A stretch of 64,000 nucleotides of DNA from Nitrospirales bacterium (GTDB taxonomy: Bacteria; Nitrospirota; Nitrospiria; Nitrospirales; UBA8639), in the NCBI GenBank assembly GCA_963555755.3, contig OY820905.2, positions 3,744,001 through 3,808,000 of the forward strand, written 5' to 3'. Below are positions 17,330 to 37,136 of the stretch, one piece after another. The notes under the pieces are model-generated. The model worked only from the letters and a program-made list of their open reading frames with translations. It ran no database searches and was not told the origin of the DNA. Within the stretch, counting starts at the first letter, position 1, and each line of letters starts with the position of its first letter. Position numbers and translations under genes: made by a program.

Positions 17330-17665
17330 TTATTTTCCTCTTTGGAAAGGCGTCACCCATTTAGGCGCGCGTGGTTCATAAACCGTGATGATTATCGCAT
17401 GTTCAAGCGTTGTTGTACACACGACATGTACGTATCTTCCATGTGACGTTTGCTTGCAAATCAAACAGCAGGGACCCCGACGGTGTTCCGCATAATTTTC
17501 CACGAACGTGGCATCAAGAAGGACCTCCAGGATCTCCTCAAGGGAAATATCTTCCTCCACCATCTCCTGATGTCCGTGAAGAGTGATCCGAAGCTTGTCA
17601 GTTTCGGCTTGCCGTCGCAACTGCGCCAATATCGCGTCGGGATCCTGGGTATCAATGTCGGTCAT
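17330..17665 (-). CDS. DUF4258 protein (putative toxin)
   Basis: ITLHGHQEM.E..I, ENY...RGPCCLI, HVVC and IITVYEP....W; paired with YgiT finger. Confidence 0.85.
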   Translation of the reverse strand: MTDIDTQDPDAILAQLRRQAETDKLRITLHGHQEMVEEDISLEEILEVLLDATFVENYAEHRRGPCCLICKQTSHGRYVHVVCTTTLEHAIIITVYEPRAPKWVTPFQRGK

Positions 17666-17782: not shown

Positions 17783-19686
17783 CAGGGCTATTTCATATTA
17801 AAGTGTAACTTTATAGATAATAAGGAATAATCGATTTAGGCTGGCTTTTTCTTTTCGTTTACGGCATACTCTTTTGCATGCCAGACGAATCGCCAAGCGG
17901 ACAGCCGGACATTGATCTGAGGCAAGTCGTGGTTCGCCCAATTGTCCGAGACGAAAAGGACGCCTTCAAGACCCTTCTCGACAGACACCACTACCTCGGT
18001 CATGCCCCGCTGATTGGCCAATCGATACAATATCTCGCCTGTGTGCAGGATCGCTGGCTGGCCTTGCTGGTGTTTGCGGCGGCGGCCCTCAAATCGAGAC
18101 CGCGAGACCACTGGATCGGCTGGCCCCCCTGTTTTCAATGGCAACGACTCCATTTACTGGCCAACAACACCCGGTTTCTCATGCTGCCGGGCTGTTCGCA
18201 AAAGAACCTCGCCTCGAAAGTCCTGTCGCTCTGCGCGAAACGGATCTCGGCCGATTGGCAACTGTACCACGGCTACCCCTTGCTCCTCTTAGAGACCTTC
18301 GTCGATCCTGCCCGCTTCACCGGGACCTGCTATCGGGCCGCCGGGTGGCACGAGCTCGGTCTGACACGAGGGTTTCGCAAGTCGAACACGTGTTATGTTC
18401 AGCATGAGAGACCGAAGCGCATCCTAGTCGTGCGGCTGCATCCCCAAGCCCGAGAGATCCTTGCACGCCCGATGCTTGATCAGCCCTATCAGAAAGGAGA
18501 AGCGCCTCAGATGAGATTGAATACAAAACAGACGGACTCCCTCTTTACGTATGTGGTGCAGCTGACCGATCCCCGCCATTTGCAAGGGCAACGGCACACC
18601 CGACGCGCCCTCACGGCGATCATGTTCTGTGCCACCTTGTGCGGCGCGCGCGGCTATGAAGCGATCTCGGACTGGGCCCAGCAGTTATCGCAGCCGATGC
18701 GCAAGCGGCTAGGCTGTACTCAGCGAGGGGGGCGCTACCTCGTCCCGAGCCGCAGCACTCTTTACCGCTTTATCACGGCCGTCGACCCCTGTGAAGTCGA
18801 TACCCTGCTCGGCCGGTGGCTGGACACCTTCGGCGGGGAGGATCAGGGCATTGCCATTGATGGGAAGACCATGCGGGGGACGTCGAAGGTCCCAAGCGAA
18901 CAGACCCACGTCCTCAGCGCCGTCACCCATCAAGCCGGGCGCCACCTCACCCAAAAAAAGTTCACTCCAAGACCAATGAGATCCCCTGCGTGCGGCCCCT
19001 GTTAGATGCGCTCGAGATCGCAGGGAAGGTGATCACGGCGGATGCGCTCCTCACCCAGAAAGAGATTGCCGAGTACCTGGTGCACGAACGCGGCGCCGAC
19101 TTCGTCTTCACCGTCAAGGGAAACCAGCCCACCTTGAAGCACGACATTGAGGCCTTAGCGTTGCGAGCACGCCGGTGCGATTATGCCACCACCGAGAAAG
19201 GCCATGGGCAGATCACGACCCGCAGGATCTGGTGCGATGACTCCCTGAATGCCTATGTCAACTTTCCTCATGTCCAGCAAGTCTTCTGCATTGAGAGGGA
19301 AGTGACGCATCTCAAGCAGGGCCTCACGACCGTCGAAGCGGTCTGCGGTGTCACGAGTCAGTCCAAAGACAAGGCGGGGCCGAAGACCATCCTCTCGCAA
19401 AACCGAAAGCATTGGAGTGTGGAGAATAAGCAGCATTATGTGTTGGACGTCACCTTTGATGAAGACAGGAGTCAGATACGAAGTCTCAATGGCCCAATGG
19501 TCATGACCTGTCTGAGACGCTATGCCATCAGTCTCTTACGCCTGAAAGGCTACACCAATATCGCGCAGGCGTGTAGACTGCTCTGGGGCAAGCCCCATTT
19601 AGCCATCCGCATGGCCCTGCCCTGAAAAAGAGGGCACAAAAAACCTCATGGAATCCCTTGCTTATAAAAAGAATGAAATGGCCCTG
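17783..19686 (+). mobile_element. Complete ISAs1-family IS carrying a DUF4338/DruA-like domain
   Basis: TIRs CAGGGCTATTTCAT / ATGAAATGGCCCTG; 10-bp direct repeat AATTTTGCAG at 17773-17782 and 19687-19696. Confidence 0.92.
17878..19625 (+). CDS. DUF4338-ISAs1 DDE transposase, split by a -1 frameshift at A AAA AAG (18953-18960)
   Basis: N-part HHYLG, NNTRFL, LLETFVD..RF.GTCYRAAGW; DDE part DPR, AIDGKT.RG, KTNEIP (shifted frame), ITADALLTQ, VKGNQPTL, HWSVEN..HYVLDVTFDED. Confidence 0.88.
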
Positions 19687-20303: not shown

Positions 20304-20526
20304 TTAAATCGTTGAAGAGGGCACAATGAGATTTTGCAGCTACGAGAGGCATAGGGATGGCTCAACAGGCCCTGAAGGAATAACACACGAGAGTGTTGCT
20401 TCACTCTACGCATGGTGCAGCACGAAACTATCCTTGTTTTCTCTTTTTTTCTCAACGTGTTAGATTTGCAGAGCTTGTTCAAACCTAATCCATAAATTTT
20501 CAATGAGCCCTTGCTTGCCAGTGGCA

Positions 20527-23500
20527 TGACTGCTTCAGACCCCGACACTAACCCGCCCCCAACGCCGAAACCATCGGGAATAAGACGAGTCTTGAAATGG
20601 CTGGGGGTTTTCGCCGGCCTTGTTTTGATCCTTGTGTTGTGCGTCGTCTTGCTGTTGACCTATTGGTTCCCCTCTGAATTGGTGCGTGAGGAGTTAGAAG
20701 TGCGATTGTCTGACATGCTGGATGGGACGGTGCGCATTCGGGGTCTGTCCTTTAACCTTTTGCATGGACTGAGCTTACAGCACGTCGAATTTCAGAAAGG
20801 CCCACAGCCCATGCTTGAACTCGATCGTTTGGTTTTAGATTACAGCCTGTTCGGTCTTCTCCAGCAGAAGTTGAAAATCAATGAGGTTCGCATCGACGGA
20901 GCTGATCTTTCTCTCAACTTGGCAGAGTTACAGGGGGCTTCGGACGAACACGAGCCAGCTCCGCCTTCGACGGACCCTGGAGCGTTGCCTCCAATCCCTT
21001 TGAGCTTGGATCTCGAATCTTTGATCATCAGTCGGACCAATATTCAATTAGATGTGTCACCGGACCTTGCGGTGACGGTGCGTGATCTCAACCTTGAACT
21101 GTCTGGTGGAGTCGAACACGATCTTGTTCAACTCAAGGGTGTGGTGGTGGTGGCGCAAGTGGGGGTTGATCTTGAGGAGAAGGAACTCCGTTTTCCCCTT
21201 GGTCTGAGCTTCGATGTCAAAGCGGATTTGCCCTCACAACATCTGACCCTTGACCACGTGACGGTCACCTCAGAGCCGACGCTAGATTTGACGCTATCGG
21301 GAACAATCGAGGAGTTTCTCGGCAATCCGTCTGTTGATCTTTCGCTAGATGATACTCGGTTTGATATCCAGCGGATCTTGGCCTTAGTCCATGACTTTGT
21401 GCCAGCGGAATTTCATGATGTAAATGTCTCCGGAATCCTATCGCCCACATTGTTCGTCAAGGGAGGGCTTGGGGAGAGTGGGTTTTCCGGAGCGGTGAGC
21501 ACGGGCCTTGCGATTCAGGGTTTACAGACAGATCTTACCCAGTTTGAGATAAAACTCCATCCCACGAATGTGGAAGTGAATCTGACGGATGTGGTGATTA
21601 AAGACAATATGCCTGATGCCGGAACCATTGAGATTCACGTTCAGTCAGACAAGGCGGCGTTCCAGATTTATGAGGTCGAGGGCTTGGACTTTCAGTTTTC
21701 AGGAGATTACTTTGCCTTGGGGCCTGTGTCTGTGAAAATGAATGTTTCGGGCACAGCCAATTTACCGCCTCAAGAGCCGCTTGCGGCACTGACGCTTCCA
21801 TTCGCCGTACGACTCGACGCGCTTGGAAACTATCGTACGCAGGATGCCAAGATCAAACAGTTGGTGGTGGAATTGGGCAACCTACTGACGGTTCAACTCG
21901 ACGGGACTGTGAAACCCAATCCGGGTTCGCCCCAGACCATGAGTGTCGATCTGAAAACGCGGCTTGAACCTCACCTTGAGCATATTTTTCCCCTCGTTCC
22001 TCAAAATCTGTTACAGGATTTTTCTATTGAAAAACTCACTGCGCCGGATTTTCTCACCGTCCACGTTCAAGCGAGACTCGATACAGAGTATCGGCCGCTT
22101 GATGCAGACGTCTCAGCCAGAGGGAATGTGGGCAACATGACCATCAGGCAGAAAGCATTCTCTGCTGGAGGCACCCTCGACACCATGAATGTTGTTCTTG
22201 CGACCCGGTATAATGCTCAGAGGGAGGATGTCAGGGGATCCGTAACCGGGAACCTGACTCTCGTAGGTCTTGACTATGGGGAGATGGCTGCGGTTGGGCA
22301 AGTTGGTTTGGCGTTGGACACCTCCTTTAGCGGACGGCTCTCTTCCACCTTTGAGCTCAGCGAGTTGTTGTCTGAGCAAGCGTTAACCCTGTTGGTAAAG
22401 AACCTGCAGTATACCTCTCCGGAATTAGGGGTGGGCTTGGAGGAATTGACGTTATCCGCCACACTCCATGAAGACTTTGATGAACAACATTTTACGGTCG
22501 ATGAACTTCGTGTGACCAGTGAGTCGCTCATGGATGTGATGCTCGCCGCTGACTTTCACCAGGAGTCGAAGAGCTTTGATGTTTCGCTCGATATTCCCTA
22601 CGTGAATGTCGGGGAGTTGCAAAGCAAGTTGTCTGGTGAGGCAGTACAGAGTCTGAATGAATTGAATCCCGGGGGTACGATGTCACTTTCCATGAAGGCT
22701 TCGGGCCGAGTGCCTGAGGAACAGGACATCCAAGCATTGGACATTCCCGTTGCCCTGACCACCAAGCTTTCTTTGGACAACGTGCATGGAGCCTTTGCCG
22801 ACTATCTGGTGAATGGCGCTGAAGGCACGGTCTCTTTTTCTTTTGTGCCGGGCGATCGTCCTGTGGTGCAGGTGGAAACCGATCTTACGTTTGCCGAGGT
22901 GTTGTTGGAACCGGGGTTACCGCTTGAGCGTCTGTCCGGGACATTTGCCAAGTTTAATATCATGACGACAAATTTTGATGAAGTTGCGGTAAATACGTTG
23001 CATGTCGGAATGGACGGCGCGGATGTTTCCCTGGAAGGTACGATTGGCGGCATTCGAGAGATCATTGAAGGTAAGGGCAATGTGATGTCGAACTTGCCGG
23101 ATATGTTTGCCCAAGTGAACACCACTGTTCAGGTAAGCCTCGATGAATTTCAAACGGTGTTGCAGCCGATGGGGCTCATTGGCACAGGACAAGTTCAGGT
23201 TGGTGTGTCTCTCTTAAAGAAGGAGCGTGGCCCCCTGGCTCTGAAGCTGAATCTGGGAAGCCGAGGTATCCAATTCAGTCAGGAGGGAACACGAATAGAA
23301 AATATGGATGGGCAGATCACCATCCGAAAGCGACTGAACTGGATTGAAAACGCCGGTGCCAAATCCCAGACACGAATGTTTCGTCCAACTGATGTGCTGT
23401 CTCAGTTGCGTTCGATTAAAGGAAAAGAAAAGAGTTTGGCCGTTGAACGTCTCGATCTTGGATTGATCTCGGTGTCGAACTTTTCCGCGAATATTCTGTT

Positions 23501-24101
23501 TGATCAAGATGCCTTCAAGGTTCAAAATTTAGCCATGAATCTGCTGAATGGGGGGGTGGGCGGAAACATTATCGTGACCGGTGGTAAGGCGTTTGGTGTG
23601 GCAGGGCGATTTGAAGCGGCGCATCTCGACCTCAATCAATTGCTTGATGACACGCAACGAATATCCGGAGATAACCTGCTGGATGCGACCATTGGCCTGT
23701 CGGTCTTTTTTGACAAAGAGACCGGAGCGCTGGATCTGAGTCGAACTGAGGTGAAGCTGTTTATCACGCATATTGGCCAGGAAGCCGTTGATCGGTTGTT
23801 GGTATTGCTGGATCCCGAAGGCAGTAATCCCACCTTGGTTTCCGCGCGGTCGCAAATCACACTCGCCAATCCGTCCAAGGTGTCCCTGCAATTGACAAGA
23901 GGAATGCTGGGTTTGGAGATTCTGTTTAGTGAAGGCTTCCTCCAGCCGTTTCGGCTCAATCGAATTCCGATCGGGAAGATCAAACAATTTAAGGCTGTCA
24001 CGGAAGGCATTCCCGGTTGGGACAATGTGAGAGAGATCATGGCCTTTGTTGGCGCTCAGTCTTATGGTCTGGATGAACAGGGAAAACTGGTGCTGCAGTA
24101 A
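20527..24101 (+). CDS. Large AsmA/YdbH/TamB-like inner-membrane-anchored periplasmic protein
   Basis: Single N-terminal TM helix, then ~1150 aa of amphipathic beta-strand-like sequence; adjacent DUF1318 gene. Confidence 0.7.
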
Positions 24102-24248
24102 TGCGTAAAGCGTAATGCGTTATGAGTAAATGGCAAAGGAAAATACAGAGATGAGTTTAGGTCTCTTCACCCATGACGCATCACGTTTTACGCATCACGA
24201 TTTTTCAGGAGGAGCCCAATGATGCCTCATCAAGGAGGAACACATACC

Positions 24249-24818
24249 ATGAAGCACATGAGTCAAACCATCCTTTGGCTCGTCCTAGTCTTTGTCGCTG
24301 GATGTGGTGGACCCTTGGTGGGTGTCACGGTAGTCGATGAGCGAACAGCCTTGGAAAATCAGGTGTTGGGAACCTATGAAGAGTTAAACCAGGAAGTGCT
24401 CTTAGTCGCGTCGGTTCGCTACATCGATCCCAAAGGAAAATTGAAAAAGTCTGCGGAAATTCCTTCCGGGAAGAAAAAGGTGATTCGGGCTCTCCAGCGT
24501 GCGTCATTCAATAAAGATGATATTGATCAGTACAAAGAACATGGGGTGCTCGGAGAGAACAATCAAGGTGGGATTACGCTCCTAGCCTCTGACAAGGTTC
24601 CCCCTGACCAATTGCCCTTTGTGGAACATCTGGTTCAGGAAGAAAACGCCGATCGTGAGATGGTCATGCGTCGGGTCATCGAGACGAATGAGAAACTCTC
24701 CAAGAAGGATTTTCCAAGGGTGAAAAAAATGTTTGCTTCATTAAATCGTGACAAAGCTTTGGCCGGGCACTTGATCCAATCCGAGGATGGCAAATGGACG
24801 AAAAAGGAAAAGAAATGA
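24249..24818 (+). CDS. DUF1318 (YdbL-like) lipoprotein
   Basis: Lipobox VAGC; TALENQVLG; GVLGENNQG...VQEENADR and terminal G.W..K. Confidence 0.75.
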   Translation: MKHMSQTILWLVLVFVAGCGGPLVGVTVVDERTALENQVLGTYEELNQEVLLVASVRYIDPKGKLKKSAEIPSGKKKVIRALQRASFNKDDIDQYKEHGVLGENNQGGITLLASDKVPPDQLPFVEHLVQEENADREMVMRRVIETNEKLSKKDFPRVKKMFASLNRDKALAGHLIQSEDGKWTKKEKK

Positions 24819-27800
24819 CAATAATCTGTTCGTCCCGCATCACGAGATTTCCAAAATCTTTAAAGAAGCTGATGTGGAGTCTTCTGTTCCTCGTGATGAG
24901 TGTTTTCTCTAGTCCCTGGCTCGGACAGGCTGCTGATGTTCATCAGGTCACCACGCATCCTGCACTGGAATATTTTCCTGCACCATCTCAAGACGGACGA
25001 TTTCTGGCCTTTGTGTCCGAACGATCGGGAAATGCGGACATTTGGTTGAAATCCTTGAGCCTTGGCGTAGTGTCCTTGCCCCGTCAACTAACGACGCATC
25101 CAGCCGTCGATAGAGATCCGTCCTTGAATGCTGAAGGCAGTCAATTGCTGTATGTCTCTCATAAGTCTGATCCTCGGGGAGACGTGTATCTGATGAATCT
25201 GACGACCGGCGAAGAGGAGCGACTCACCGGTTTAGGTACGGCAGATTCATTGCCGCAATGGGGAGAGGACGGAAATTCAATATTGTATCTCTCCCAGGAT
25301 GTGGTTTCTGGTGTTCAAACATTGAAACGACGAGCCGTAGCCAGTCATCAATCAACCACTCTGCTTTCAAATGTGTCCGCGTATACGATTGGGCCGGATG
25401 GCTGGATCGTGGTTTCGCAAAATGGAACATTGTTCCTTTTCAATGAGCAGACACCAGATCACGTGAAAAGCTTGGACGTGTCTTCGGGGTTGAACATGTG
25501 GTCGGCGATAAGTGGCGATCACTCTGTGGCCTGGACCCATTACGCGCAAGACAGCAATAAGGATGGGGTGTTGGATGCGAACGACGAATCTTCCATCTGG
25601 TTTGGTCAATGGGATTTCCAAGGCGGCACACAGCTCAGTCAGTATCACATGACGTCCTTAGGCCAATTCCATCTCTACCCGGCAGCGGCCCAAGGGTTTG
25701 TCTATTTTACGGATTTGGAAAAAGGGGACATCTTTCGAATCCGAATACAGGAATTTCTCGACGACTATTCCTCATTTGATCAGGCCAAAACACTGGCCGA
25801 CCGGCTATTGGATCGAGGCGAGATCAACAAGGGATTGGTCGTCCTCGCCAATATCTCGCGAAATTTGACGCAATCTCTTGATGAGGAAACCCGTGCCGAA
25901 TTTGATTTTGCCTACGCGGAACAGTTGATCGAGGCTGGTGAGTTTGTGCGAGCGCAACACGTGATCGAACCGTATGCAGAATCTTCAGGCGGGATTGGTG
26001 CGTTAGCAAACATTCACAAGGTCGTTCTGCCTCTGTACCAGCAAGCCCCTTCTATGAGTGAGGATGAACTCAAACGTGAGGTGAAAGCAGGCGCTGATGA
26101 GGTCATGGAAATCGGAGAAGTGTATGGAGAAAACGAAATCGTTTATGGCCAGGCTCTGATTGAAGCCGGTCGATTATATATGTTGATTGAAGATTCCCTT
26201 TCGGCTTTGGAATATTTAGTTCGCGTCGATGAGTTGGCGAACAAAGAGATTCGTGCCAAAGCCCTGTTTATCCGGGGAACGGTCTATCGGGGATTGGGAG
26301 ATCAAACCAGTGTACTCACGGTCTTCATTGATGTGATTACGATGTTTGGAGAAGACAGCTCGTGGGGAAAACGTGCGATCGCTCAAGCGATTGCCGTGTC
26401 GGAACAAGGGCAAGATGTGCATGAACACGTTGCCTCGCTTCGGGAACTCATTGCCCAGCAGGACACATTGAAGCTTTTGGTTGGGGCCACGCGGTTACGC
26501 ATCGCGGATTTGCTCGATGAGGCAGGCGAGCAGATCAAAGCTGTTCAAGCGCTTGACCGGTTGTTAGGCGAGCCTCCTCCCGACGTTCTGGCTTCCGACG
26601 CTCTGGTCACACAAGCCTATCGACGGAAAGCCGAGATTTTGGCTGCGGCCGAACGGTATGAGGAAGCGGCAGACATATATGGCATTCTCGTAGAACGAAC
26701 CGGAGAAGATCCGACGATGTTAGAGCAAGCCAAAGAACTCTTGGTCCTGCAACTGGTGAGAGAAGCAAGAAAGGATCGAACCATTGGCGAAGTCCGTATT
26801 GCCGCCAAGGCCTTTCGAAACATTACCGAAGATTACCCGGATTCGGTTGAAGCGCATCGCGGCTATATCAACACGAAGGTGATGCTGGAGGAGCTGCCTG
26901 AGGTGCAGGCGAGGTATCAAAATCTGGTTGCCCAGAAGCCTGATTCCTCGGTGTATCAATATAGTCAAGCCTTGGCGCTGTCCTATGCTCAGCCTCTTGA
27001 CGTGCCCAAAGTGGTGGAAATGCTTGAGGCGGCCATTCGTGTAGATCCGGGGGTTTCGTATTATCATCAGACCTTAGGGTGGGGCTATGAGCAGGAGGAG
27101 CAAATTGGTGGCAAACAAGGCTTTCTGGAAAAGGCGGAACACGAGTATCGGATTGCCCTTGAACTGAATGATGAATTCCGATTTCCTGATGTGGAGTCGA
27201 ATCTCCTCCTGAATCTTGGCAACACCTACCGGACGTTGGGTAATTTTCATGAGGCGTATCGGGCCTATCAACAGCGAGAGTCTGGCTATACACCAGCTGG
27301 GGATTCCGTGACTGAATTGCTGTACCGAAAAAACTATGGCGAGGCGTGCTTTAAGAGTGGGCGAACGGATGAAGCCTTGGTGCAGTATCAGTTAGCGTTT
27401 CATCGTGTTCCGGAAGACCAGAAAACTCTCAAAGCCGAATTGCTTGAACGGATTGCCCTCTCCTATCAAGACCTGGGAGACCATGCCAAAGCCGTCGATG
27501 CCTTTTCACAGGCATTGGAAATTAATCTCGAACTTGGCAACACAAAAAATCTTGCGCTGTTGCAACGGAACATTGGGGTGAGTCTGTACAACTTGAGCGT
27601 ATCCAGTTCAGGTGGGAGACGGGAGGCATTGAAGCGGGCGCTGAAAAACTATTTCACGAGCCTCGATACCCTCAAGCAATTTGGCGGAAAACAACAAAAG
27701 GAAAGCGCTGGTTTATTCAACGTCGATGTGGCGCTGGATGAGGGTGGCTCACAGGCTGCCACTGGATTTGACCAGAAGGGCGAACAGAAATTGATGTTTA

Positions 27801-30800
27801 GTTATATTGCGGGCACCTATGAGCGACTGGCTGAACCTGGCCCGGCGCGTGACTACTATCTGAAAAAACTTGAACTCATCTCTGAGACTGGTTTAACCGC
27901 GGGCAATGTGGGGCTCCTCACGGAAAAAGCCGTCGTACTGAACCGTGTTGGGTTGCTGTCTCATCAATTGGGTGAGGATGCCCAAGCCTTGGACTATATC
28001 CGGCAGTCCCTTGGCTACACCAAGACGTTAAGGTTGCCTTTTGGGACGGGAGTCAACCTGTATAATCTGTCGCGGTTGGCTGCTGAGGGTGTGCTTGGGG
28101 GACAGCCTGTTGATTGGACGATAATGACAACTCTCGTCGATGGTCTTGACCAGCACCTCGCAGAAGACCATGACGATGCTGCAACGTTTTATGCCCTGAC
28201 CAACACCGCTTTTTTGTTGTATCACTTGACCGAACCCCCACTCTTGGTTTCTCAAGATAGCGAAGGGACCATACAGGCCATGCATGCCTTTTATGACATG
28301 AAAAGTAAGGTATGGTCCTATTATACCAAGGCCGAAGAACTCTTGGTGCAGGGCTCAGTGCTTCCTGAAGGTCAGGTGTTGCCTACACAAGTTATTCTTA
28401 AGCTGAACAGGATGGAACTCGCGCAAGAGGCTGGAGAGCAGGAATCGTACCTGAAGATACAAGATGAATTATTGGCCCTGGTCGAACACCAAAATATTTC
28501 GAATGGTTGGTTGGGGTATGTTGCGCAAGCCGAGCAAGCTACTGATCAAGCCGAGCGGCAAGCCTTGCTCGCGCAAGCCTTTGATGCAGTGATGGCGCTG
28601 CCTTCACAGGTCTCCAATCCACAACAGGGAACAACCGCGGTTCTTGCTGGTTTGCAGACCTTATCTCGAATGTATGTGGATCAATTGGTAGAAGCTGAAT
28701 CCTATGCTCAGGCATTCGAAGTGGCCGAACGGCTGGACATGCGGGCTATGGTTATCCAATTGCAAGCGTCACTTGGTGAAGAGTTTTTCTTCAAAGGAGT
28801 GGGCGAATACGAAAGTGACCTTCGGGGTTTGTTGGCTGAGATCCGAAACAGTTTGGCCACGGCAAGGACTGAAGAAAGCGAAGCCTTGCTCATGGAACTC
28901 GAAGAGCTGTTATTTGGGCTGTATGAAGAATACCCGGCTGCCACGAGTTATTTCTGGCAATATCCGCCGCCAGAAGAAACGATGTCTCTCGTCTTGAACC
29001 CTGATCGAGTCTATCTCAAGGTCGTTGAAGGGATGAATCAGTTTCATGGGTTTATCCATGATGGGGCTGCAGTCCACTATGTTCCACTTGAAATGAGTGA
29101 AGGACGAGTTTCGGTGAAGGAGGTTCTGGGAGATTGGCTTTCAGGTGAAAGCCCCATGTATCTTTCAGTTCCGGATAATCATAGGCGAATGGTTACTCTG
29201 GCCCTGGCACCTACGAAGCCCGTGACGCGAGTATTCGGTTTTTATGACTTTGTGAGCGGGTATCACCAGCGAAGTGTTTTTTATTCCAATGTCGGGATTA
29301 TCGGTGAGTTGGCATTGGACCCCGGGCTCACAGCCGGTGATGTGCCGCTCTTGTCGCAACCATTGACTGGGGTCCCCAAGCACGATCATCCGATTGTGGA
29401 TCAATTGGACGTGTTAATTGCAACCCAACCACCTCAGGCGTTCAACTTTGTCTTGGCCGAAGAGTTGAAAGTACGAGAGCTCTTGCCGGTGGCGCGGTTG
29501 GCTGGGCGACCACACCATACGGCGGTTCTTTTTCATTCTCAGTCCTCCCGGGCTTCCTCAAATCCAGTCTTGATCTCGGCGCTCCTCCGAGCCGGGTTCC
29601 CGCATGTGGTGGTGGTTCGCGGCAATGACAATGAAAAAGCCGCGAGCCAGTTTGCCTCGCTGTACTTGGCCTACTTGAATGATGTGCCTCCCGACGAAGC
29701 CGTGTTCATGGCCAGAAGTGATGTGTGGGGGGCACAAGTGGGTTCCGCGCACGTCGAACTGTTTGGCTATGCGGGCATGAATGAGGAAGAGCGTGCCGAG
29801 TTTGCCGCATCCATTTACGATGAAGAGTTGGCAGCAGCCGTCAGCCTCTTTCAGGAAGACCAATTCGAACCGGCGTTGCAAAAAATGGAACATGCGCTTT
29901 CGGTGATTCATTATGCGGATAAATCCTCAGATTTTGCGGATTTGACCAAGCTGGCCGTGGATGCGTCTTTCAAGATTGGGAATTATCACAATGCCGTGTT
30001 TCATCAGAAGCGACTCCTGGAATCGCTTGATGAATCCACGCAACCCGAGGAACGCTCGGAAGCCTTGTATCGCTTGGGCATTCTCTATTCGCGGTCGGAA
30101 CAGTTCGATGAATCCATTCGGTATTTAGACGAAGCCATTCAATGGTGGACCAAAGCCGAGGAACTGGATCGTTTGGCTGAAGGCATCGCGCAATTGGGCG
30201 TGGTGCGGGAAAATATGGGGGCCTATTCCGATGCGTTGACGGAATTCGGCCGGTCGTTTGAGCTCTATGAGGAGATTGGCGAGATTGGCGATGTGGCCAC
30301 GCAGCATCGTCGCATTGGCCGGATTTATTACTTGCGATTAGGCCGATATGAAAAAGCCAGAGAACAGTTTCACGCGGCTCTCGACCTGTACCGCGAACTT
30401 GAAGATTCCAATGGGGAAGCCGAGACCTTGTTTGAGATTGGTCTGACCTACGAAAAGATGGGATTGTTTGATGAGGCCGATGAACAGTATCAGGCAGGCA
30501 ATCACATCGGCCAAGCGATTGAGTCGCCCTATCTGTTAGCGACAGGCAATTTGTATTTGGCCAATACGGCCTGGTTTCGAGGCGATTACCAAGAGGCGTT
30601 TCAGAATCTCACGCAGGCTGGCAAACAAGCCGATGCGGCTCAAGATGCGCAGCTCACCATTATGGTGAAAAATACGCGAGGCCTGATGTATTGGACCTTG
30701 AACGATTTGGATAAGGGGCTGACGCATTTAAAGCAAGCCGTGGTCTTGGCGGAAAAAACGGATATCAAAACCGAGCTGGCTTCGTCACTCAATAACTTGG

Positions 30801-32632
30801 GGCTGGTTTATCGGCAACAGGGGGATTACGTGACGTCACTGGAATACTTTGAACAAGCCAAAGCCATCGATGAAAGCCTGAACAGCCGCTGGGGGCTTGG
30901 CTACGATTATCGCAACATTGGCATGGCGTTGCTGAAGCTCGACCGATTGCAAGAGGCGTTGACACACTTTGTCCAAGCGGCTCAAACCAGTGCCGAAATC
31001 AAAAATGCCATCAATTGGGTTAAGGCGTTGCTGGAGCTGGGGAACGTGCACCGGAAGCTACAACATCCGGACCAGGCCGTGGAGTACTATGAACAGGCCT
31101 ATGATCTCTCCCAAAAATACGGCCTCAAAGAAGTGCTCTGGCGGGCGGCTGCAGGACAAGCCGGTGTTCTACAAGAACGTGGCCAAGCCGAAGATGCTTT
31201 TGGCTGGTACGCTACTGCCATTGATGTGGTGGAAGGCATGCGTGCCGCGCTGAAGATCGATGAGCTTCGCAATAGTTTTCAAGCCAATAAACAGGATCTC
31301 TATCGGGACACGATCACCTTGTTAGTAGAGATGGGTCGAACGGATGAAGCCTTTAATTATCTGGAACGGTCGCGTTCGAGAAGTTTTATTGACCTCCTGG
31401 GCAATCAGAAACTGACATTAAAAAACGAGGCTGATCAGGAAGCGCTTGAGCATATTGGCCAACTGGCTTTGCGAGTTGACGCCCTGACTCAAGAGCTTGG
31501 GAGCTATGACGAAGCGCCTCTTGAGTTTCAAGATACACTCAGGGATGCCAAAGTCGCGCATGAGGAAGCGCTTCTCGAACTCAAGCAGGACAATCCGGGC
31601 CTGAGCAGTTTCGTGTCCGTTGATCCCCTCAATCTCCCTCAGGTTCAAGAGATGCTGGATTCAGGCATTGCGCTGGTGTCTTACCTGATGGGGAAAGACA
31701 CCACCTATGTGTGGTTGATCCAAAAGAAAGAAACCAAATTTTTTCAGACGGCCGGGGGGGAAGCCGCGATTCTTCCACTGGTGAAACAGTATCGTGGCTT
31801 GGTTCAGAATACCGAACCTGTTGATAAAGAGCTGCGGGAGCTGTATGCACGCCTCATCAAGCCCTTTGAGCAAAACCTGAAGGGTGTTGAATATCTCGGA
31901 ATAATCCCCGATGGGGCGCTCCACTTTCTGTCATTTTCAGCGTTGAAGAATGATCAGGGATATCTCATTGATCGGTATCCGCTCTTTTATGCTCCGTCTG
32001 CGTCTGTCTTGGAATACACGTTTGCCAAACGGAAAGATGAAAAACTGACCAGAGTATTGGCCATCGGGAATCCGGACTTGGGCAATTACAATTATGATCT
32101 TCCGTTGGCCGAGTTGGAGGCACAGAGCATCAAATGGAATTACCCCGACATGGATATTCTCACCGGGGCCAAGGCCACCAAGGAATGGTTGGTGAGCAAC
32201 ATTTCCAAATACGGCATTATTCATTTGGCCACTCATGGCGAATTTGATGAAGTGAATCCGCTGTCCTCTTCATTGTGGCTTTCGTCGCAGCAACCGGATA
32301 ATCGAAAGCTCACGGTCAAGGAAATTTTTGGTTTGGATATTCATGCGGACCTGGTGACTCTGAGTGCCTGCCAAACAGGGTTAGGGAAGCTCAATGCCGG
32401 TGAATTAATCGGCCTCAATCGAGCCTTTTTTTACGCAGGCACGCATGCGTTGGTCTCTGCTCTGTGGCGTGTGGATGACTTATCCACCTCGGTCCTCATG
32501 AAGCATTTCTACCGGAATTATGTCACAATGAATAAAGCGAAGAGTTTGCGGCAGGCTCAGCTCATCGTCAAAAGGGACTTCCCGCATCCCTCATATTGGG
32601 CCGGATTTAATTTGGTTGGAGATTATTTGTAA
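24815..32632 (+). CDS. Giant exported PD40/TolB-propeller + TPR + CHAT (caspase-like) protein
   Basis: ATG overlaps upstream stop; signal peptide; P.PSQDGRFLAFVSERSGNADIW; many TPRs; CHAT motifs IIPDGALHFLSF, IHLATHG, LVTLSACQTG, LWRVDD, HPSYWAGF. Confidence 0.9.
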   Translation: MTIICSSRITRFPKSLKKLMWSLLFLVMSVFSSPWLGQAADVHQVTTHPALEYFPAPSQDGRFLAFVSERSGNADIWLKSLSLGVVSLPRQLTTHPAVDRDPSLNAEGSQLLYVSHKSDPRGDVYLMNLTTGEEERLTGLGTADSLPQWGEDGNSILYLSQDVVSGVQTLKRRAVASHQSTTLLSNVSAYTIGPDGWIVVSQNGTLFLFNEQTPDHVKSLDVSSGLNMWSAISGDHSVAWTHYAQDSNKDGVLDANDESSIWFGQWDFQGGTQLSQYHMTSLGQFHLYPAAAQGFVYFTDLEKGDIFRIRIQEFLDDYSSFDQAKTLADRLLDRGEINKGLVVLANISRNLTQSLDEETRAEFDFAYAEQLIEAGEFVRAQHVIEPYAESSGGIGALANIHKVVLPLYQQAPSMSEDELKREVKAGADEVMEIGEVYGENEIVYGQALIEAGRLYMLIEDSLSALEYLVRVDELANKEIRAKALFIRGTVYRGLGDQTSVLTVFIDVITMFGEDSSWGKRAIAQAIAVSEQGQDVHEHVASLRELIAQQDTLKLLVGATRLRIADLLDEAGEQIKAVQALDRLLGEPPPDVLASDALVTQAYRRKAEILAAAERYEEAADIYGILVERTGEDPTMLEQAKELLVLQLVREARKDRTIGEVRIAAKAFRNITEDYPDSVEAHRGYINTKVMLEELPEVQARYQNLVAQKPDSSVYQYSQALALSYAQPLDVPKVVEMLEAAIRVDPGVSYYHQTLGWGYEQEEQIGGKQGFLEKAEHEYRIALELNDEFRFPDVESNLLLNLGNTYRTLGNFHEAYRAYQQRESGYTPAGDSVTELLYRKNYGEACFKSGRTDEALVQYQLAFHRVPEDQKTLKAELLERIALSYQDLGDHAKAVDAFSQALEINLELGNTKNLALLQRNIGVSLYNLSVSSSGGRREALKRALKNYFTSLDTLKQFGGKQQKESAGLFNVDVALDEGGSQAATGFDQKGEQKLMFSYIAGTYERLAEPGPARDYYLKKLELISETGLTAGNVGLLTEKAVVLNRVGLLSHQLGEDAQALDYIRQSLGYTKTLRLPFGTGVNLYNLSRLAAEGVLGGQPVDWTIMTTLVDGLDQHLAEDHDDAATFYALTNTAFLLYHLTEPPLLVSQDSEGTIQAMHAFYDMKSKVWSYYTKAEELLVQGSVLPEGQVLPTQVILKLNRMELAQEAGEQESYLKIQDELLALVEHQNISNGWLGYVAQAEQATDQAERQALLAQAFDAVMALPSQVSNPQQGTTAVLAGLQTLSRMYVDQLVEAESYAQAFEVAERLDMRAMVIQLQASLGEEFFFKGVGEYESDLRGLLAEIRNSLATARTEESEALLMELEELLFGLYEEYPAATSYFWQYPPPEETMSLVLNPDRVYLKVVEGMNQFHGFIHDGAAVHYVPLEMSEGRVSVKEVLGDWLSGESPMYLSVPDNHRRMVTLALAPTKPVTRVFGFYDFVSGYHQRSVFYSNVGIIGELALDPGLTAGDVPLLSQPLTGVPKHDHPIVDQLDVLIATQPPQAFNFVLAEELKVRELLPVARLAGRPHHTAVLFHSQSSRASSNPVLISALLRAGFPHVVVVRGNDNEKAASQFASLYLAYLNDVPPDEAVFMARSDVWGAQVGSAHVELFGYAGMNEEERAEFAASIYDEELAAAVSLFQEDQFEPALQKMEHALSVIHYADKSSDFADLTKLAVDASFKIGNYHNAVFHQKRLLESLDESTQPEERSEALYRLGILYSRSEQFDESIRYLDEAIQWWTKAEELDRLAEGIAQLGVVRENMGAYSDALTEFGRSFELYEEIGEIGDVATQHRRIGRIYYLRLGRYEKAREQFHAALDLYRELEDSNGEAETLFEIGLTYEKMGLFDEADEQYQAGNHIGQAIESPYLLATGNLYLANTAWFRGDYQEAFQNLTQAGKQADAAQDAQLTIMVKNTRGLMYWTLNDLDKGLTHLKQAVVLAEKTDIKTELASSLNNLGLVYRQQGDYVTSLEYFEQAKAIDESLNSRWGLGYDYRNIGMALLKLDRLQEALTHFVQAAQTSAEIKNAINWVKALLELGNVHRKLQHPDQAVEYYEQAYDLSQKYGLKEVLWRAAAGQAGVLQERGQAEDAFGWYATAIDVVEGMRAALKIDELRNSFQANKQDLYRDTITLLVEMGRTDEAFNYLERSRSRSFIDLLGNQKLTLKNEADQEALEHIGQLALRVDALTQELGSYDEAPLEFQDTLRDAKVAHEEALLELKQDNPGLSSFVSVDPLNLPQVQEMLDSGIALVSYLMGKDTTYVWLIQKKETKFFQTAGGEAAILPLVKQYRGLVQNTEPVDKELRELYARLIKPFEQNLKGVEYLGIIPDGALHFLSFSALKNDQGYLIDRYPLFYAPSASVLEYTFAKRKDEKLTRVLAIGNPDLGNYNYDLPLAELEAQSIKWNYPDMDILTGAKATKEWLVSNISKYGIIHLATHGEFDEVNPLSSSLWLSSQQPDNRKLTVKEIFGLDIHADLVTLSACQTGLGKLNAGELIGLNRAFFYAGTHALVSALWRVDDLSTSVLMKHFYRNYVTMNKAKSLRQAQLIVKRDFPHPSYWAGFNLVGDYL

Positions 32633-32677
32633 CAACTTGCCAGATGGTCAATTACAGAAATCAACAATGAGGCATGT

Positions 32678-33190
32678 ATGAAGAAAATCATTGCGACTGT
32701 ATCTTTCCTTGTTTTGGCGCTCTTATTTATTCCTGGGCTATCACAGGCGGAAACCATGTACGCCAAGAAAAATGGCGTAAAGGTCACGGCTGAAAAATCG
32801 CCTACATCCAAAGTTGTGGGAAAGCTCAATACTGGAGATCAAGTCCAAGTGATCAAGAAAGTGGGCCGGAAGTATCAGGTGAAGCTTCCGAATGGAAAGT
32901 CCGGTTGGGTGTTTAAATTCAAATTGTCGAGCAAGAAACCTGCAGGAAAGTCCGGTGGCAGTTCGCTCTCAGCCCTCACCGGGAAAACGACTATCGCGGC
33001 TCGTGAGTCTCGATCGGGAGGGAGTATTCGCGGGTTAAAAGAGACGACAGAAAATTATGCCCAAGGAAAAAACATTGACCCTTCGCATCGTCGGTCGGTC
33101 GATGCCATGGAAGCATTTCGTGTTTCCGATTCCGAGTTAGCCCAATTCCAACAGGCTGGCAGCGTCGGCGATTATTCAGGAGGTGGCTAA
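32678..33190 (+). CDS. Exported bacterial SH3-domain protein
   Basis: Signal peptide; VVGKL..GD.V.V...YQVKLPNGKSGWV. Confidence 0.8.
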   Translation: MKKIIATVSFLVLALLFIPGLSQAETMYAKKNGVKVTAEKSPTSKVVGKLNTGDQVQVIKKVGRKYQVKLPNGKSGWVFKFKLSSKKPAGKSGGSSLSALTGKTTIAARESRSGGSIRGLKETTENYAQGKNIDPSHRRSVDAMEAFRVSDSELAQFQQAGSVGDYSGGG

Positions 33191-34134
33191 TGAAACAGGT
33201 AACAATCGCAATGGTGATGATCATCGGCCTCACCTTCTTTGCTTCCGAAGGCTTTGGCTTTTTCGATCAAATTTTTAAGCCGGAGCCCAAGAAGCAGAAA
33301 AGTCAAGAAGGTCAGGCCCAAGGAGGGCAACAAGAACAGCCTGGCTTGCTCGATGCCTTAGGAGCGTTTGGGGTCAAAAAGAAAGATATTGACCTTTTAA
33401 AGAAGGGCGTAGGCGTTGTCCAAGCGCTTCAACCCATTGGCGAAGAAGAAGAAATTACGTTGGGCCAAGCCGTGGCCGTCGAAGCGTTTAGCCGATTTGG
33501 AGGGGAATATCGTGATGAACGTCTCACGCGTTACGTGAATCTGGTTGGGAAAACCATTGCGGATGTCTCGGATCGACCGAATCTCAATTTTCACTTCGCC
33601 ATCTTGAATACCCAAGAACAAAATGCCTTCGCCGCTCCCGGCGGCTATATCTTTGTGACCATTGGCCTATTGAAAACCTTAAAGAATGAAGCCGAGTTGG
33701 CAGGAGTCTTGGCGCATGAAGTCGCGCACATCACCCAAAAACACATCCTCGAAACCATTCGACGAGGCGCGCTCTTATCCAATGTCTCGGAATTGACCTT
33801 GTCTGCGATGAACAAAGACCCAAAGATGTTTTCCAACGTCATTGACGAAATCACCGACAAACTCTTCACCAAAGGCATGGACAAAGACAAAGAGTTTGAG
33901 GCGGATGTCTATGGTGTCGAGTTTGCTTATCGTGCAGGCTATCATCCCAGCGGCCTGCGGGATTACTTGAAAACGCTCAAGAGCCAAGAAGGTCATGCCC
34001 AATCCCGTTTCTTTACCACGCACCCTTCAACCAGCACTCGGATTAGCAAAATCGAAGGGCTGTTGGGGCAATATGCCGATGGCATGAAGTTCCCAGTTTT
34101 GACTAAGCGGTTTCAGAGTTATCTGGGGGCGTGA
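33190..34134 (+). CDS. M48-family metallopeptidase (BepA/YfgC-like)
   Basis: NAFAAPGGYIFVT.GLL, EAELAGVLAHEVAH, EFEAD and THP...RI. Confidence 0.92.
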   Translation: MKQVTIAMVMIIGLTFFASEGFGFFDQIFKPEPKKQKSQEGQAQGGQQEQPGLLDALGAFGVKKKDIDLLKKGVGVVQALQPIGEEEEITLGQAVAVEAFSRFGGEYRDERLTRYVNLVGKTIADVSDRPNLNFHFAILNTQEQNAFAAPGGYIFVTIGLLKTLKNEAELAGVLAHEVAHITQKHILETIRRGALLSNVSELTLSAMNKDPKMFSNVIDEITDKLFTKGMDKDKEFEADVYGVEFAYRAGYHPSGLRDYLKTLKSQEGHAQSRFFTTHPSTSTRISKIEGLLGQYADGMKFPVLTKRFQSYLGA

Positions 34135-34236
34135 GTTAGTGATGAAGCGATCAGTTTTTTTGAAAAAACATTTTGAATGTTAGGTTGGGAAACACCTACC
34201 CTGCATTTTTTGGAATTGAGAATTTAGTGATCAGGA

Positions 34237-34641
34237 ATGCCTACGGTCCTCCGAGATGGTCCCTACCGGTTCTTCTTCTATGCGGGAGATCGTTACGAAC
34301 CACCTCATATCCATGTTGAAAGAGAAAGTTGGATTGCAAAAATATGGATTGATCCAGTTCGGCTTCAACGTTCTGGAGGCTTTACAAGAATCGAACTCAA
34401 GCGTATTCTAAGAGTTGTTGAACCTAGAAACGGCAGTTGGGCACAAAAAAGACGTGTAAGATATTGGTGTGCATGGTGAAATAAAAAAAGTCGTGGTCAC
34501 CTTTGTGGTGATGAGACATTTTTTTATTTTGCCAGGTGCGCCAAGAGCTTGCGCGGACTTTTGTGATCCAACTGCTGTTTCTAGGTTGAACAACACCAAG
34601 AACAATTAATGAAGAGTTGGCATGAGTACTTCAAAGATTGA
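34237..34641 (+). pseudogene. DUF4160 protein interrupted by a family-C MITE
   Basis: MPTVLRDGPYRFFFY..D..EPPHIHV; removing 34423-34590 restores ...LRVVEQHQEQLMKSWHEYFKD*. Confidence 0.88.
34423..34585. mobile_element. Family-C MITE (163 bp, TTGAA TSD)
   Basis: cctagaaacggcagttgg ... ccaactgctgtttctagg flanked by TTGAA. Confidence 0.9.
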
Positions 34642-34939
34642 AGCTTCCGAGCTTAAAGCCCAACAGGTTGTGGTGTCTGATGAGGCCTTAACAGTTGATC
34701 TCATCGATGGCAGAACATTATCTGTGCCTCTAGGCTGGTACCCTCGCTTGACTCATGCGTCACCACAGGAACGTGATAATTGGCGGTTCATTGGTGGGGG
34801 CGAGGGAATTCATTGGCCAGACCTGGATGAAGATATTAGCATTGAGAATCTGTGGTCTGGCAAACCTTCCGGCGAGAGTCAAGAATCGTTCAAACACTGG
34901 CTGAGCACTCGCCAATCTTCCAGCAAGTCGCCATCTTAG
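34622..34939 (+). CDS. DUF2442 protein (TA partner of DUF4160)
   Basis: L.VDL.DGRTLSVPL.WYPRL..A...R....GGGEGIHWPDLDEDIS. Confidence 0.9.
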   Translation: MSTSKIEASELKAQQVVVSDEALTVDLIDGRTLSVPLGWYPRLTHASPQERDNWRFIGGGEGIHWPDLDEDISIENLWSGKPSGESQESFKHWLSTRQSSSKSPS

Positions 34940-35208: not shown

Positions 35209-35887
35209 GTGTGCCGCGCATGTTCAACAGCTTGAGGGTGCAAGTCCCTTTGACAACCTGATGGAGGTGAAGTCATAGCGAAGCGCAAGGGCGTCGTCGT
35301 GAGGCGGGGTCTGAAGGAAGCGTAGAGCAACGGCGCGGGCCGATGAACAAGAACCAGATACGAGGCAGTCAGTGTCGGACGAGTGAGCTGGTTTTCACGA
35401 AGTCCATATCCATCAAGGGCATTGGGTGTAAATCTGGCGGTCGTGCGCTGAAGGCGGTTGAGCTTACCTCGGGAGACCTCTCGTCTGTCTTGGCACCAAG
35501 ACTGAGGATGGAGTGATCCATCTTGACCGGGTGAGAGGAGTCAGCAGAGGGCATAGTAGTCCCGGCAGGGACGAAGGCCTGAACGGTCCTGCGCAAGCAG
35601 GGTAAGAGGAGAGGCGAGGAGGCAGCGGCACTCATGAGCGACAAGCGGCTGAATAACCAGTTAACCCTGGCCTTCCCGACAGAGGATAGGGGTGAAGCCC
35701 TAAGGGCTGTCGAGGGAAGTGTCGAATCGCTTGCGGCGAACCGCCCAGTCGAACGCCCGGGTATGGGTGAGCAGTTGAGAGAAGTCTGTACTGGTGGCCA
35801 ATCGCTTAACCCACCGAACCGCCGTATACGGACCCGTACGTACAGTGGTGTGACAGGGAAAGCGGGCGACCGCCTACCTATGTCGAT
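35209..35887 (+). ncRNA. ORF-less group II intron (class C / IIC-like)
   Basis: 5' GTGTG; 3' domain V GAACCGCCGTATACGGACCCGTACGTACAGTGGTGTGA, domain VI and terminal AT; GAGTCAGCAGAGGGCATAGTAG...GAAGGCCTGAAC DII/DIII-like motifs; inserted just after a hairpin; no RT domain. Confidence 0.88.
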
Positions 35888-36637: not shown

Positions 36638-36898
36638 TTATTTATGAGCTTCGTAGTAGGAGCGAAGCACTGCATTCATGCGGGTCTGATACCCACGTCC
36701 CTGGGCTTTGAACCATTGTAAAATATCAGCGTCAAACCGAATGGTGGTCGCTTCTTTAGGACGATCAGGATAGACTACTTTCGCGTGCTTCCAAAAATCA
36801 TCCGGCAATGGCGGCCCCGGCGGTGCGTCTTTCCGCGTTTTGCCCTTCTTCGTCATCGCCTCTTCAAGGGTGATGGTGGTGATATTTTTCTTCTTCAT
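36638..36898 (-). CDS. brnA: BrnA-family antitoxin
   Basis: TIRFDADILQWFKAQGRGYQTRMNAVLR. Confidence 0.92.
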   Translation of the reverse strand: MKKKNITTITLEEAMTKKGKTRKDAPPGPPLPDDFWKHAKVVYPDRPKEATTIRFDADILQWFKAQGRGYQTRMNAVLRSYYEAHK

Positions 36899-37136
36899 CT
36901 CGTCCTGCCTTCCACGCTGAAATTATCCGGCGCTTCTCCCCGCGCCAAGTCCATACCACAACAAAATACTCTTCCTTATCAAAGCCAATGGATATCGTCC
37001 GGCTTTCACCGTAATCTTGTCTGGTATCCACCCATTCCAACACCGGATTGGAAAAAATCCGCACCACATCCAGAAAATCTATACCATGCTTTTCAAAGTT
37101 GCTTTGCTGTTTGTCATTATCCCATTCAAAGGTCAC
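36864..37136 (-). CDS. brnT: BrnT-family toxin
   Basis: FEWD..K...N.EKHGIDF, DYGE.R and RIISAWKA. Confidence 0.92.
   Translation of the reverse strand: MTFEWDNDKQQSNFEKHGIDFLDVVRIFSNPVLEWVDTRQDYGESRTISIGFDKEEYFVVVWTWRGEKRRIISAWKAGRDEEEKYHHHHP

What the first reader, a model, noticed from the sequence alone, without database searches (positions are those of the whole stretch)
20527..34134. Envelope operon coupling an AsmA/YdbH-like bridge and DUF1318 lipoprotein to a giant exported caspase-like (CHAT) protease, an SH3 protein and an M48 peptidase
Seen: five co-oriented genes, two junctions overlapping (ATGA at 24815, TAATG at 33188). All have a signal peptide, lipobox or TM anchor. The CHAT His/Cys dyad is intact (HLATHG at ~32234, LSACQTG at ~32369). 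Known: YdbH-YnbE-YdbL (DUF1318) is an AsmA-like inter-membrane lipid-bridge system, and characterised TPR-CHAT proteases (e.g. Csx29 of Craspase) are cytoplasmic and ligand-activated. Inference: a periplasmic proteolytic surveillance, signalling or export module in which the propeller/TPRs sense an input and CHAT cleaves a neighbour. The SH3 protein's Lys/Ser/Gly linker is a candidate substrate. I know of no characterised system with this five-gene composition.
Basis: partly seen in the sequence, partly recalled or inferred. Interest (0 to 1): 0.78.

Follow-up and report, generated by a model that had tools for sequence, protein, structure and literature searches.

The report
Lipid bridge with giant periplasmic caspase
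Five adjacent envelope genes encode a predicted membrane-to-membrane lipid bridge, its lipoprotein partner, a 2,600-residue likely exported caspase-like protease with a second, dead protease copy inside it, and a small SH3 protein paired with a zinc protease; they are kept together in distant bacteria even when split up on the chromosome, and likely form an undescribed protease switch acting on outer-membrane building.

Summary
The operon is real and co-inherited. g1 is a predicted repeating-beta-groove (AsmA/Vps13-like) bridge. g2 is a lipoprotein joining a YnbE-like strand to a YdbL (DUF1318) domain. g4-g5 is an SH3-M48 pair, fused in one genome.

The set is accessory: 11 of 121 Nitrospirales genomes, 8-9 of 151 Desulfobacterota. 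Where the operon is split, the missing parts were found elsewhere (g3 7 of 7, g1 5 of 5, g4 8 of 9 tested). Paralogous SH3-M48 pairs sit beside CHASE2-adenylate cyclases, so g4 looks like a reusable input rather than a CHAT-specific substrate; its linker is not conserved. The genome also has an ordinary ydbH-ynbE-ydbL operon.

Best guess (0.4): a periplasmic protease switch controlling a second lipid bridge. No binding, substrate or activity was shown. This scan already noted the same operon in other genomes; my seven paper searches found no description.

The parts
20526..24101 (+). g1, 1191 aa AsmA-like bridge protein: N-terminal TM helix, long predicted repeating-beta-groove, helical C-terminal domain
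   Evidence: Pfam AsmA 31.3 bits; AF2 pLDDT 84.3, pTM 0.54; Foldseek top hit LPD-3 9CAP, prob 1.00, TM 0.14; N-terminal 250 aa match Vps13 6CBC Z 9.1, TamB 9XDD Z 7.9, Atg2 6A9E Z 7.6
24249..24818 (+). g2, lipoprotein (Cys codon at 24303): alternating beta-strand plus helix (YnbE-like anatomy) fused to a DUF1318/YdbL domain
   Evidence: Pfam DUF1318; Cys invariant in 25 of 25 aligned orthologues; sequence homology to YnbE not detected
24815..24934 (+). g3 predicted Sec signal peptide region
   Evidence: sequence; hydrophobic stretch in 69 of 78 orthologue N-termini vs 78 of 2850 internal windows
24935..25774 (+). g3 TolB-like PD40 beta-propeller (approximate bounds)
   Evidence: Pfam PD40, NCBIfam propeller_TolB E 1.5e-14
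25802..28654 (+). g3 first TPR/helical region (approximate bounds)
   Evidence: Pfam and NCBIfam TPR hits
28667..29794 (+). g3 internal pseudo-CHAT module: separase/Csx29-like fold without the catalytic Cys
   Evidence: hhalign 96.7% to the C-terminal module; AF2 pLDDT 86.2, pTM 0.90; Z 17.5 separase 5U1T, 16.3 Csx29 7Y9X, 15.8 DdvA 8ROT; no Cys in this stretch
29822..31294 (+). g3 second TPR region (approximate bounds)
   Evidence: Pfam TPR_12 and related families
31307..32632 (+). g3 active CHAT module; His codon 32234, Cys codon 32369; the only CHAT match in this genome
   Evidence: Pfam CHAT E 1.2e-64; dyad motifs in 60 of 60 distinct orthologue segments; one match in the genome
32678..33190 (+). 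g4, exported SH3b protein with variable linker and conserved S-I-R-G-L motif (at 33023) plus C-terminal helices
   Evidence: Pfam SH3_3; S116, R118, G119, L120 invariant in 21 of 21; linker variable
33190..34134 (+). g5, exported M48 zinc peptidase (HEVAH at 33715)
   Evidence: Pfam M48; closest solved relatives 3C37 (E 4e-51) and BepA (E 1e-36)

Best explanation
The five genes are one co-inherited envelope module that likely works as a protease-controlled lipid bridge: g1 is predicted to reach from the inner membrane as a lipid-carrying groove that the lipoprotein g2 would complete at the outer membrane, and the likely periplasmic CHAT protease g3 would switch the bridge by cutting one of its parts after a cue passed on by the SH3-M48 pair. 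Shown: gene set, domain anatomy, intact catalytic motifs, co-inheritance, predicted folds. Inferred: g1-g2 binding by beta-strand addition (from E. coli YdbH-YnbE); that g4-g5 is an input module (from its reuse beside CHASE2 cyclases and one fusion); that the propeller, TPRs and dead CHAT act as sensor, scaffold or latch; and the substrate. My leading substrate candidate is g2. In E. coli free YdbL caps YnbE and its level is set by DegP; here the YdbL domain is tethered to the lipoprotein, so releasing it would need a cut.
For: Gene order: of the best 80 of 155 genome loci found with g2, 63 have g1 upstream (9 do not, 8 too short), 67 have g3 downstream (10 do not, 3 too short), and 28 show all five. 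Retention when unlinked: g3 elsewhere in 7 of 7 tested genomes, g1 in 5 of 5, strong g4 in 8 of 9. In Desulfonema magnum the parts lie at three loci megabases apart. Profiles: in 121 Nitrospirales genomes g3 is in 11, full g1 in those 11 plus one broken copy, orthologous g4 in 10 of the 11. In 151 Desulfobacterota genomes all 8 g2 orthologues are among the 9 with g3, and 10 genomes with shorter CHAT paralogues have no g2 orthologue. M48 proteins from g3-bearing genomes fall on one side of a branch (27 rows, SH-aLRT 97, quick tree). SH3-M48 fusion directly after g3 in G551. E. coli precedent: PMC11126948 (abstract, section 5, Discussion) and PMC13464000 (passages).
Against: Nothing here shows which protein g3 cuts, or that it acts on the bridge at all. 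g2-like fusion lipoproteins with AsmA-like neighbours also occur with no CHAT gene in view (7 loci; 19 weak hits in genomes without g3), so a tethered YdbL does not by itself require g3. G533 and G574 hold g2 and g3 but no orthologous g4 was found (small draft genomes). HEXXH is lost in 3 of the 27 M48 rows. YnbE homology of the g2 N-terminus is not detectable by sequence. Genomes are kin and the 80 loci were chosen by similarity to g2, so the counts overstate independence.
Confidence: 0.4

Rival explanations
1. Envelope-level defence against phages or predators: g3 senses an invader in the periplasm and its caspase-like activity triggers membrane damage or shutdown through the bridge.
For: Patchy presence. 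Ca. Nitrotoga copies nest inside the Nitrospirales clade, consistent with transfer (quick tree). The window copy is flanked by four TA-type pairs, an IS and intron pieces. The closest solved CHATs are immunity proteins Csx29 and DdvA.
Against: No PADLOC model matches g1, g2, g4 or g5, and g3 matches only a generic TPR model. 11 of 84 flanking ORFs from other genomes hit PADLOC, mostly generic domains (sigma-54 ATPase, methylase, kinase, radical SAM); no background was run. Parts are kept after dispersal to separate loci. g2 has no match in plasmid records or viral contigs.
Confidence: 0.2
2. g1-g2 is a dedicated export or assembly route for the 290-kDa g3 (TamB-like), M48 is its BepA-like quality control, and g3 acts at or beyond the cell surface.
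For: g2 and g3 are translationally coupled here. AsmA-family TamB assists protein assembly (recalled). The M48 profile matches BepA.
Against: No beta-barrel gene lies in the operon, and g3 has no barrel or lipobox. The C-terminal partner of g1 is a YdbL-type lipoprotein, which points to the YdbH type.
Confidence: 0.15
3. g3 is mainly a structural scaffold that holds the bridge and the SH3-M48 pair together; its CHAT only cuts itself during maturation.
For: About 1,400 residues of TPR/helical repeats plus a dead CHAT. DdvA is proposed to self-cleave (PMC11506125 Discussion).
Against: The active CHAT is the most conserved part of the module (71-82% identity among Nitrospirales, against about 29-48% for g1 outside the two closest relatives), more than a one-off self-cut would seem to need (inference).
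Confidence: 0.15
4. The cluster is a loose assembly of two or three independent modules (bridge; CHAT giant; SH3-M48) that travel together without functional coupling.
For: The order is permuted (SH3-M48-AsmA-DUF1318 first) or split in some genomes. Each module type has paralogues in other contexts.
Against: Orthologous parts are retained after being unlinked, and other CHAT paralogues do not track g2.
Confidence: 0.1

Closest known systems
E. coli YdbH-YnbE-YdbL intermembrane bridge (PMC11126948; PMC13464000)
   Same: Inner-membrane-anchored repeating-beta-groove protein followed by a lipoprotein with an alternating strand plus helix and a DUF1318/YdbL domain; in E. coli YdbL is under protease (DegP) control.
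   Different: g1 does not hit Pfam YdbH-like and is longer (1191 aa; the genome's own YdbH is 937 aa). The YnbE-like and YdbL parts are one lipoprotein. Two dedicated proteases and an SH3 protein are co-inherited. The genome has a separate canonical ydbH-ynbE-ydbL operon.
DdvA periplasmic TPR-CHAT anti-sigma factor of Myxococcus xanthus (PMC11506125; PDB 8ROT)
   Same: Extracytoplasmic TPR-CHAT with His-Cys dyad; fold match to the g3 pseudo-CHAT, Z 15.8.
   Different: DdvA is a 991-aa transmembrane anti-sigma with a cytoplasmic zinc domain. g3 is 2605 aa with a signal-peptide-like N-terminus, a propeller, two CHAT modules, and no sigma factor in the operon.
Csx29 (Craspase TPR-CHAT) and separase
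   Same: Same module fold, Z 15-17.5; His-Gly and Cys motifs align.
   Different: These are cytoplasmic and controlled by Cas7-11/RNA or securin. g3 scores 34.6 bits against the Csx29 cut-off of 300 and has no CRISPR context.
BepA/LoiP-type M48 periplasmic proteases; SH3-M48 pairs beside CHASE2-adenylate cyclases
   Same: M48 fold and HEXXH. The paralogous SH3(RGL)-M48 pair has the same two-gene layout.
   Different: g5 lacks the BepA TPR tail and is far below the BepA cut-off (96 vs 570 bits). CHASE2-linked M48s lie outside the branch of the g3-linked ones. One search for CHASE2/M48/SH3/adenylate cyclase returned no paper.

Membership tests
AsmA-like / repeating-beta-groove bridge (g1) | N-terminal TM anchor and chorein-N/AsmA N-terminal domain | tested here: met
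   TM segment; Pfam AsmA just over the cut-off; Vps13/Atg2/TamB fold matches Z 7.6-9.1
AsmA-like / repeating-beta-groove bridge (g1) | Elongated repeating beta-groove along the protein | tested here: met
   AF2 model nearly all long strands, pLDDT 84; top Foldseek hit LPD-3, though TM 0.14 and rmsd 24; hydrophobic lining not measured
AsmA-like / repeating-beta-groove bridge (g1) | Transports lipid between membranes | not testable with these tools
   needs complementation or a transport assay
YdbH-YnbE-YdbL system | Bridge protein belongs to the YdbH family (PF11739) | tested here: not met
   no PF11739 hit for g1 or three orthologues; the genome's other operon hits it at E 6e-80
YdbH-YnbE-YdbL system | YnbE lipoprotein (PF13617) | tested here: inconclusive
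   same anatomy (lipid Cys, alternating strand, helix), but 0 of 25 hit PF13617 and hhalign gives 0.7%
YdbH-YnbE-YdbL system | YdbL/DUF1318 domain | tested here: met
   25 of 25 hit PF07027; weak PDB match to YdbL 28OJ, E 0.16
CHAT (clan CD) protease, g3 C-terminal module | CHAT domain with His-Gly and Cys dyad | tested here: met
   (60 of 60)
CHAT (clan CD) protease, g3 C-terminal module | Proteolytic activity and substrate | not testable with these tools
   needs an in vitro or in vivo assay
Craspase / Csx29 | Csx29 model score and type III-E CRISPR context | tested here: not met
   34.6 vs 300 bits; neighbours are envelope genes
DdvA-type anti-sigma | TM helix plus cytoplasmic zinc domain and cognate ECF sigma gene | tested here: not met
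   the propeller begins right after the hydrophobic N-terminus; no sigma gene among the five
M48 peptidase (g5) | HEXXH zinc motif in the M48 fold | tested here: met
   HEVAH; Pfam M48
Known anti-phage systems (PADLOC) | Members match curated defence models | tested here: not met
   only a generic TPR model for g3

The most novel reading that the evidence does not exclude
A new class of periplasmic signalling machine: a portable SH3(RGL)-M48 input pair, which elsewhere feeds CHASE2 adenylate cyclases, here activates a giant two-module caspase-like protease, whose dead module acts as latch or substrate dock, and which cuts the cap of a lipid bridge to open or close lipid flow between the membranes. 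This would be caspase-type control of bacterial intermembrane lipid transport.
Probability: 0.25. Interest if true: 0.88.

Novelty: new variant of a known kind. Interest (0 to 1): 0.68.

Why it matters
How bacteria regulate bulk lipid transport by AsmA-like bridges is an open question, and exported CHAT proteases have one characterised example known to me (DdvA) whose trigger is unknown. This module offers a short list of co-inherited candidate substrates and activators for a likely periplasmic caspase-like enzyme, in cultured hosts such as Desulfonema magnum and Geobacter sp. OR-1. It also exposes a second, apparently undescribed unit, the SH3(RGL)-M48 pair shared with CHASE2 cyclase loci, which could point to the ligand of those sensors.

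Tried and rejected
SH3 linker as CHAT substrate: rejected as leading idea (variable sequence; motif shared with CHASE2-linked pairs).

Leptospira LIC_11026 lead: weak N-terminal NCBIfam hit only (19.8 vs 325 bits). No papers with those locus tags; one Leptospira paper names a CHAT protein only in a table (passage). No Leptospira genome was searched. The Atlas lists g2-like clusters commonest in Spirochaetota and Myxococcota, a lead only.

Pseudo-CHAT by sequence: comparing only the caspase cores gave 1.7% and 5.4%, so the hhalign signal needs the whole module; non-overlapping control regions gave at most 1.8% and shuffled columns at most 0.14%. The fold search carries the claim.

g1 fold search: the top Z values (10.6-9.2) are outer-membrane beta-barrels at rmsd 7-32, read as generic curved sheets.

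phmmer of the CHAT domain alone against the PDB found nothing; a profile reached Csx29/DdvA only at E 0.01-0.03.

Expression: one metatranscriptome has short, near-identical contigs in g1, g3, the g3/g4 junction and g5 at depth 3-5, but DNA cannot be excluded; not used as evidence. The promoter/terminator scan was at chance level.

The careful CHAT tree did not finish; both trees are quick trees. The cluster look-up named only Ca. Nitrohelix among 10 distant g4 homologues.

Paper searches without a description of the operon: (listings and abstract starts seen). Subscription papers and supplements were not searched and may mention it.
Full report
Observation. The five ORFs, both overlaps and the catalytic His/Cys positions are as described, apart from a one-base slip in the g1 start. 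The window lies at C1:3744001-3808000 of a 4.62-Mb, 99%-complete genome whose closest named relatives are Nitrospirales. A single contig of a public run spans 20903-34448 without differences, so the giant ORF is not an assembly artefact, though that run may be the source sample.

g1. Pfam AsmA is just over the cut-off at the N-terminus. An AF2 model from 55 sequences (pLDDT 84.3, pTM 0.54) shows a TM helix, about 900 residues of long strands and a helical end. Its top Foldseek hit is the bridge-like lipid transporter LPD-3 (prob 1.00, TM 0.14). Residues 49-297 match Vps13, TamB and Atg2 fragments (Z 7.6-9.1), while beta-barrels score slightly higher at poor rmsd. It is not a Pfam YdbH member. 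The genome has a separate canonical ydbH-ynbE-ydbL operon, so this is a second bridge.

g2. The lipobox Cys is invariant and is followed by an alternating strand and a conserved helix, then DUF1318. This is the anatomy that PMC11126948 (section 5 and Discussion read) describes for YnbE, joined to YdbL, but sequence homology to YnbE was not detected.

g3. It has a signal-peptide-like N-terminus (69 of 78 orthologue N-termini, against 78 of 2850 control windows; the window's own copy missed a stricter 19-residue scan), a TolB-like propeller, TPRs and a C-terminal CHAT with both dyad motifs in 60 of 60 distinct segments. It is the only CHAT match in the genome. New here: residues about 1285-1660 are a second CHAT module. 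Profile comparison with the C-terminal module gives 96.7%, with controls at or below 1.8% but weak core-only scores. The AF2 model (pLDDT 86.2, pTM 0.90) matches separase, Csx29 and DdvA at Z 15-17.5 over 258-311 residues. The window protein has no Cys there and no column has Cys in more than 9 of 43 rows, so the module is predicted to be catalytically dead.

g4-g5. The SH3 protein's linker varies, whereas S-I/V-R-G-L and the last helices are conserved. The full-length g4 homologues whose surroundings I fetched had an adjacent M48 gene, and in G551 an SH3-M48 fusion follows g3. A paralogous pair sits beside CHASE2 genes: 6 loci (4 with an adenylate cyclase domain, 1 with a kinase). In Nitrospirales, 22 of 121 genomes have such a paralogue; 11 were fetched, all with M48 and a 680-780 aa neighbour, and the 6 neighbours scanned are CHASE2-cyclases. 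M48s from g3-bearing genomes form one side of a branch (27 rows, SH-aLRT 97, quick tree), and three of them have lost HEXXH.

Co-inheritance. Among the best 80 of 155 loci found with g2, 63 have g1 upstream (9 not, 8 too short) and 67 have g3 downstream (10 not, 3 too short); 28 show all five. Where the CHAT end and 1.5 kb beyond were visible, 30 of 32 have g4 and g5 (locus L033 was entered by hand and left out of the last count). Named hosts include Nitrospira, Ca. Nitrotoga, Geobacter, Desulfosudis, Desulfonema and Ca. Desulfatibia. Where the operon is split, the missing gene was found elsewhere: g3 in 7 of 7 tested (of 10), g1 in 5 of 5 tested (of 9), g4 in 8 of 9.

Genome samples. In Nitrospirales (121 genomes) g3 is in 11, full g1 in 12 and orthologous g4 in 10; the extra g1 has three stops and that genome has no CHAT match. 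In Desulfobacterota (151) g3 is in 9, orthologous g2 in 8 of those 9, and g4 in 6; 10 genomes with shorter CHAT paralogues have no g2 orthologue (same sample). In 300 genomes drawn from the phylum of Ca. Nitrotoga, 7 have a strong g4 and all 7 have the CHAT gene, several in the permuted order SH3-M48-AsmA-DUF1318. Against: two small genomes have g2 and g3 but no orthologous g4, and g2-like fusions occur beside AsmA genes without CHAT. Ca. Nitrotoga copies nest among Nitrospirales in a quick tree, consistent with transfer. These genomes are kin, so the counts are descriptive.

Mechanism. I commit to a protease-controlled accessory lipid bridge (0.4). The bridge step rests on predicted folds and the E. 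coli precedent. The control step rests on co-inheritance and on PMC13464000 (passages read), where YdbL caps YnbE, is toxic in excess and is removed by DegP; a tethered YdbL could need a dedicated cut. The input role of SH3-M48 rests on its reuse beside CHASE2 sensors. Defence (0.2) is not favoured by PADLOC or by the neighbours, though the window copy lies among TA-type pairs, an IS and intron pieces. Export of g3 (0.15), a self-cleaving scaffold (0.15) and loose clustering (0.1) remain.

Known and new. The closest systems are YdbH-YnbE-YdbL, DdvA, Csx29/separase and BepA; the module fails a defining test for each as a whole. Seven paper searches found no description of the combination; supplements and subscription papers were not seen. 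This scan had already noted the operon in other genomes (four findings), and those notes gave me the three papers and a similar envelope-control reading.

Noticed in passing
L128-L132, L170, L197-L206, L208: SH3(RGL)-M48 pair beside CHASE2 genes (mostly adenylate cyclases); in Nitrospira-type genomes preceded by a cNMP-binding MscS channel or a trypsin/FGE-sulfatase protein. It looks like an undescribed signalling operon of its own.
   Followed up: partly
L188:5223-6455 (-): 410-aa SH3-M48 fusion directly downstream of the g3 orthologue; the same genome has another free g4.
   Followed up: partly
L103, L125, L126 M48 genes: M48 orthologues unlinked from the CHAT gene have long branches and have lost HEXXH; possibly pseudo-proteases.
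   Followed up: no
L013-L019: AsmA-like gene plus a Cys-V-T-V-N-I-Y-F-P lipoprotein fused to DUF1318, without CHAT, in other Nitrospirota families: a simpler fused YnbE-like/YdbL system.
   Followed up: partly
G000:C1:2702016-2705482 (L100:5016-8482): Canonical ydbH-ynbE-ydbL operon of the same genome.
   Followed up: yes
window 15094-15658, 17103-17665, 34237-34939, 36638-37136: Four TA-type pairs flank the operon: ParDE, DUF4258 plus a small partner, DUF4160-DUF2442, BrnTA.
   Followed up: no
window 17878-19625: Transposase in two overlapping ORFs (DDE_Tnp_1) with an N-terminal DruA-like domain; read depth shows the 19.5-20.5 kb and 34.4-35.5 kb flanks are multi-copy repeats.
   Followed up: no
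window 35293-35579: Group II intron D1-D4 fragments (Rfam RF02001, RF01998) with no reverse-transcriptase-sized ORF nearby.
   Followed up: no
window 16116-16820: 234-aa probably exported protein with no Pfam or NCBIfam hit; it and the DUF1295 gene also lie upstream of the operon in L022, so the site may be stable in this lineage.
   Followed up: no
L011, L026, L031, L034-L038, L042, L050, L052, L061, L069: In 13 of 30 loci compared, a HerA-like ATPase and a DUF2959 gene precede g1.
   Followed up: no
L047, L053: Ca. Nitrotoga (a betaproteobacterial nitrite oxidiser) carries the module, nested within Nitrospirales sequences.
   Followed up: partly
L207 and L058/L064: Decaying copies: G722 keeps only a g1 with three stops and has no CHAT match; in CP070743 g3 ends at 1601 aa and a partial g1-g2 lies elsewhere.
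   Followed up: partly
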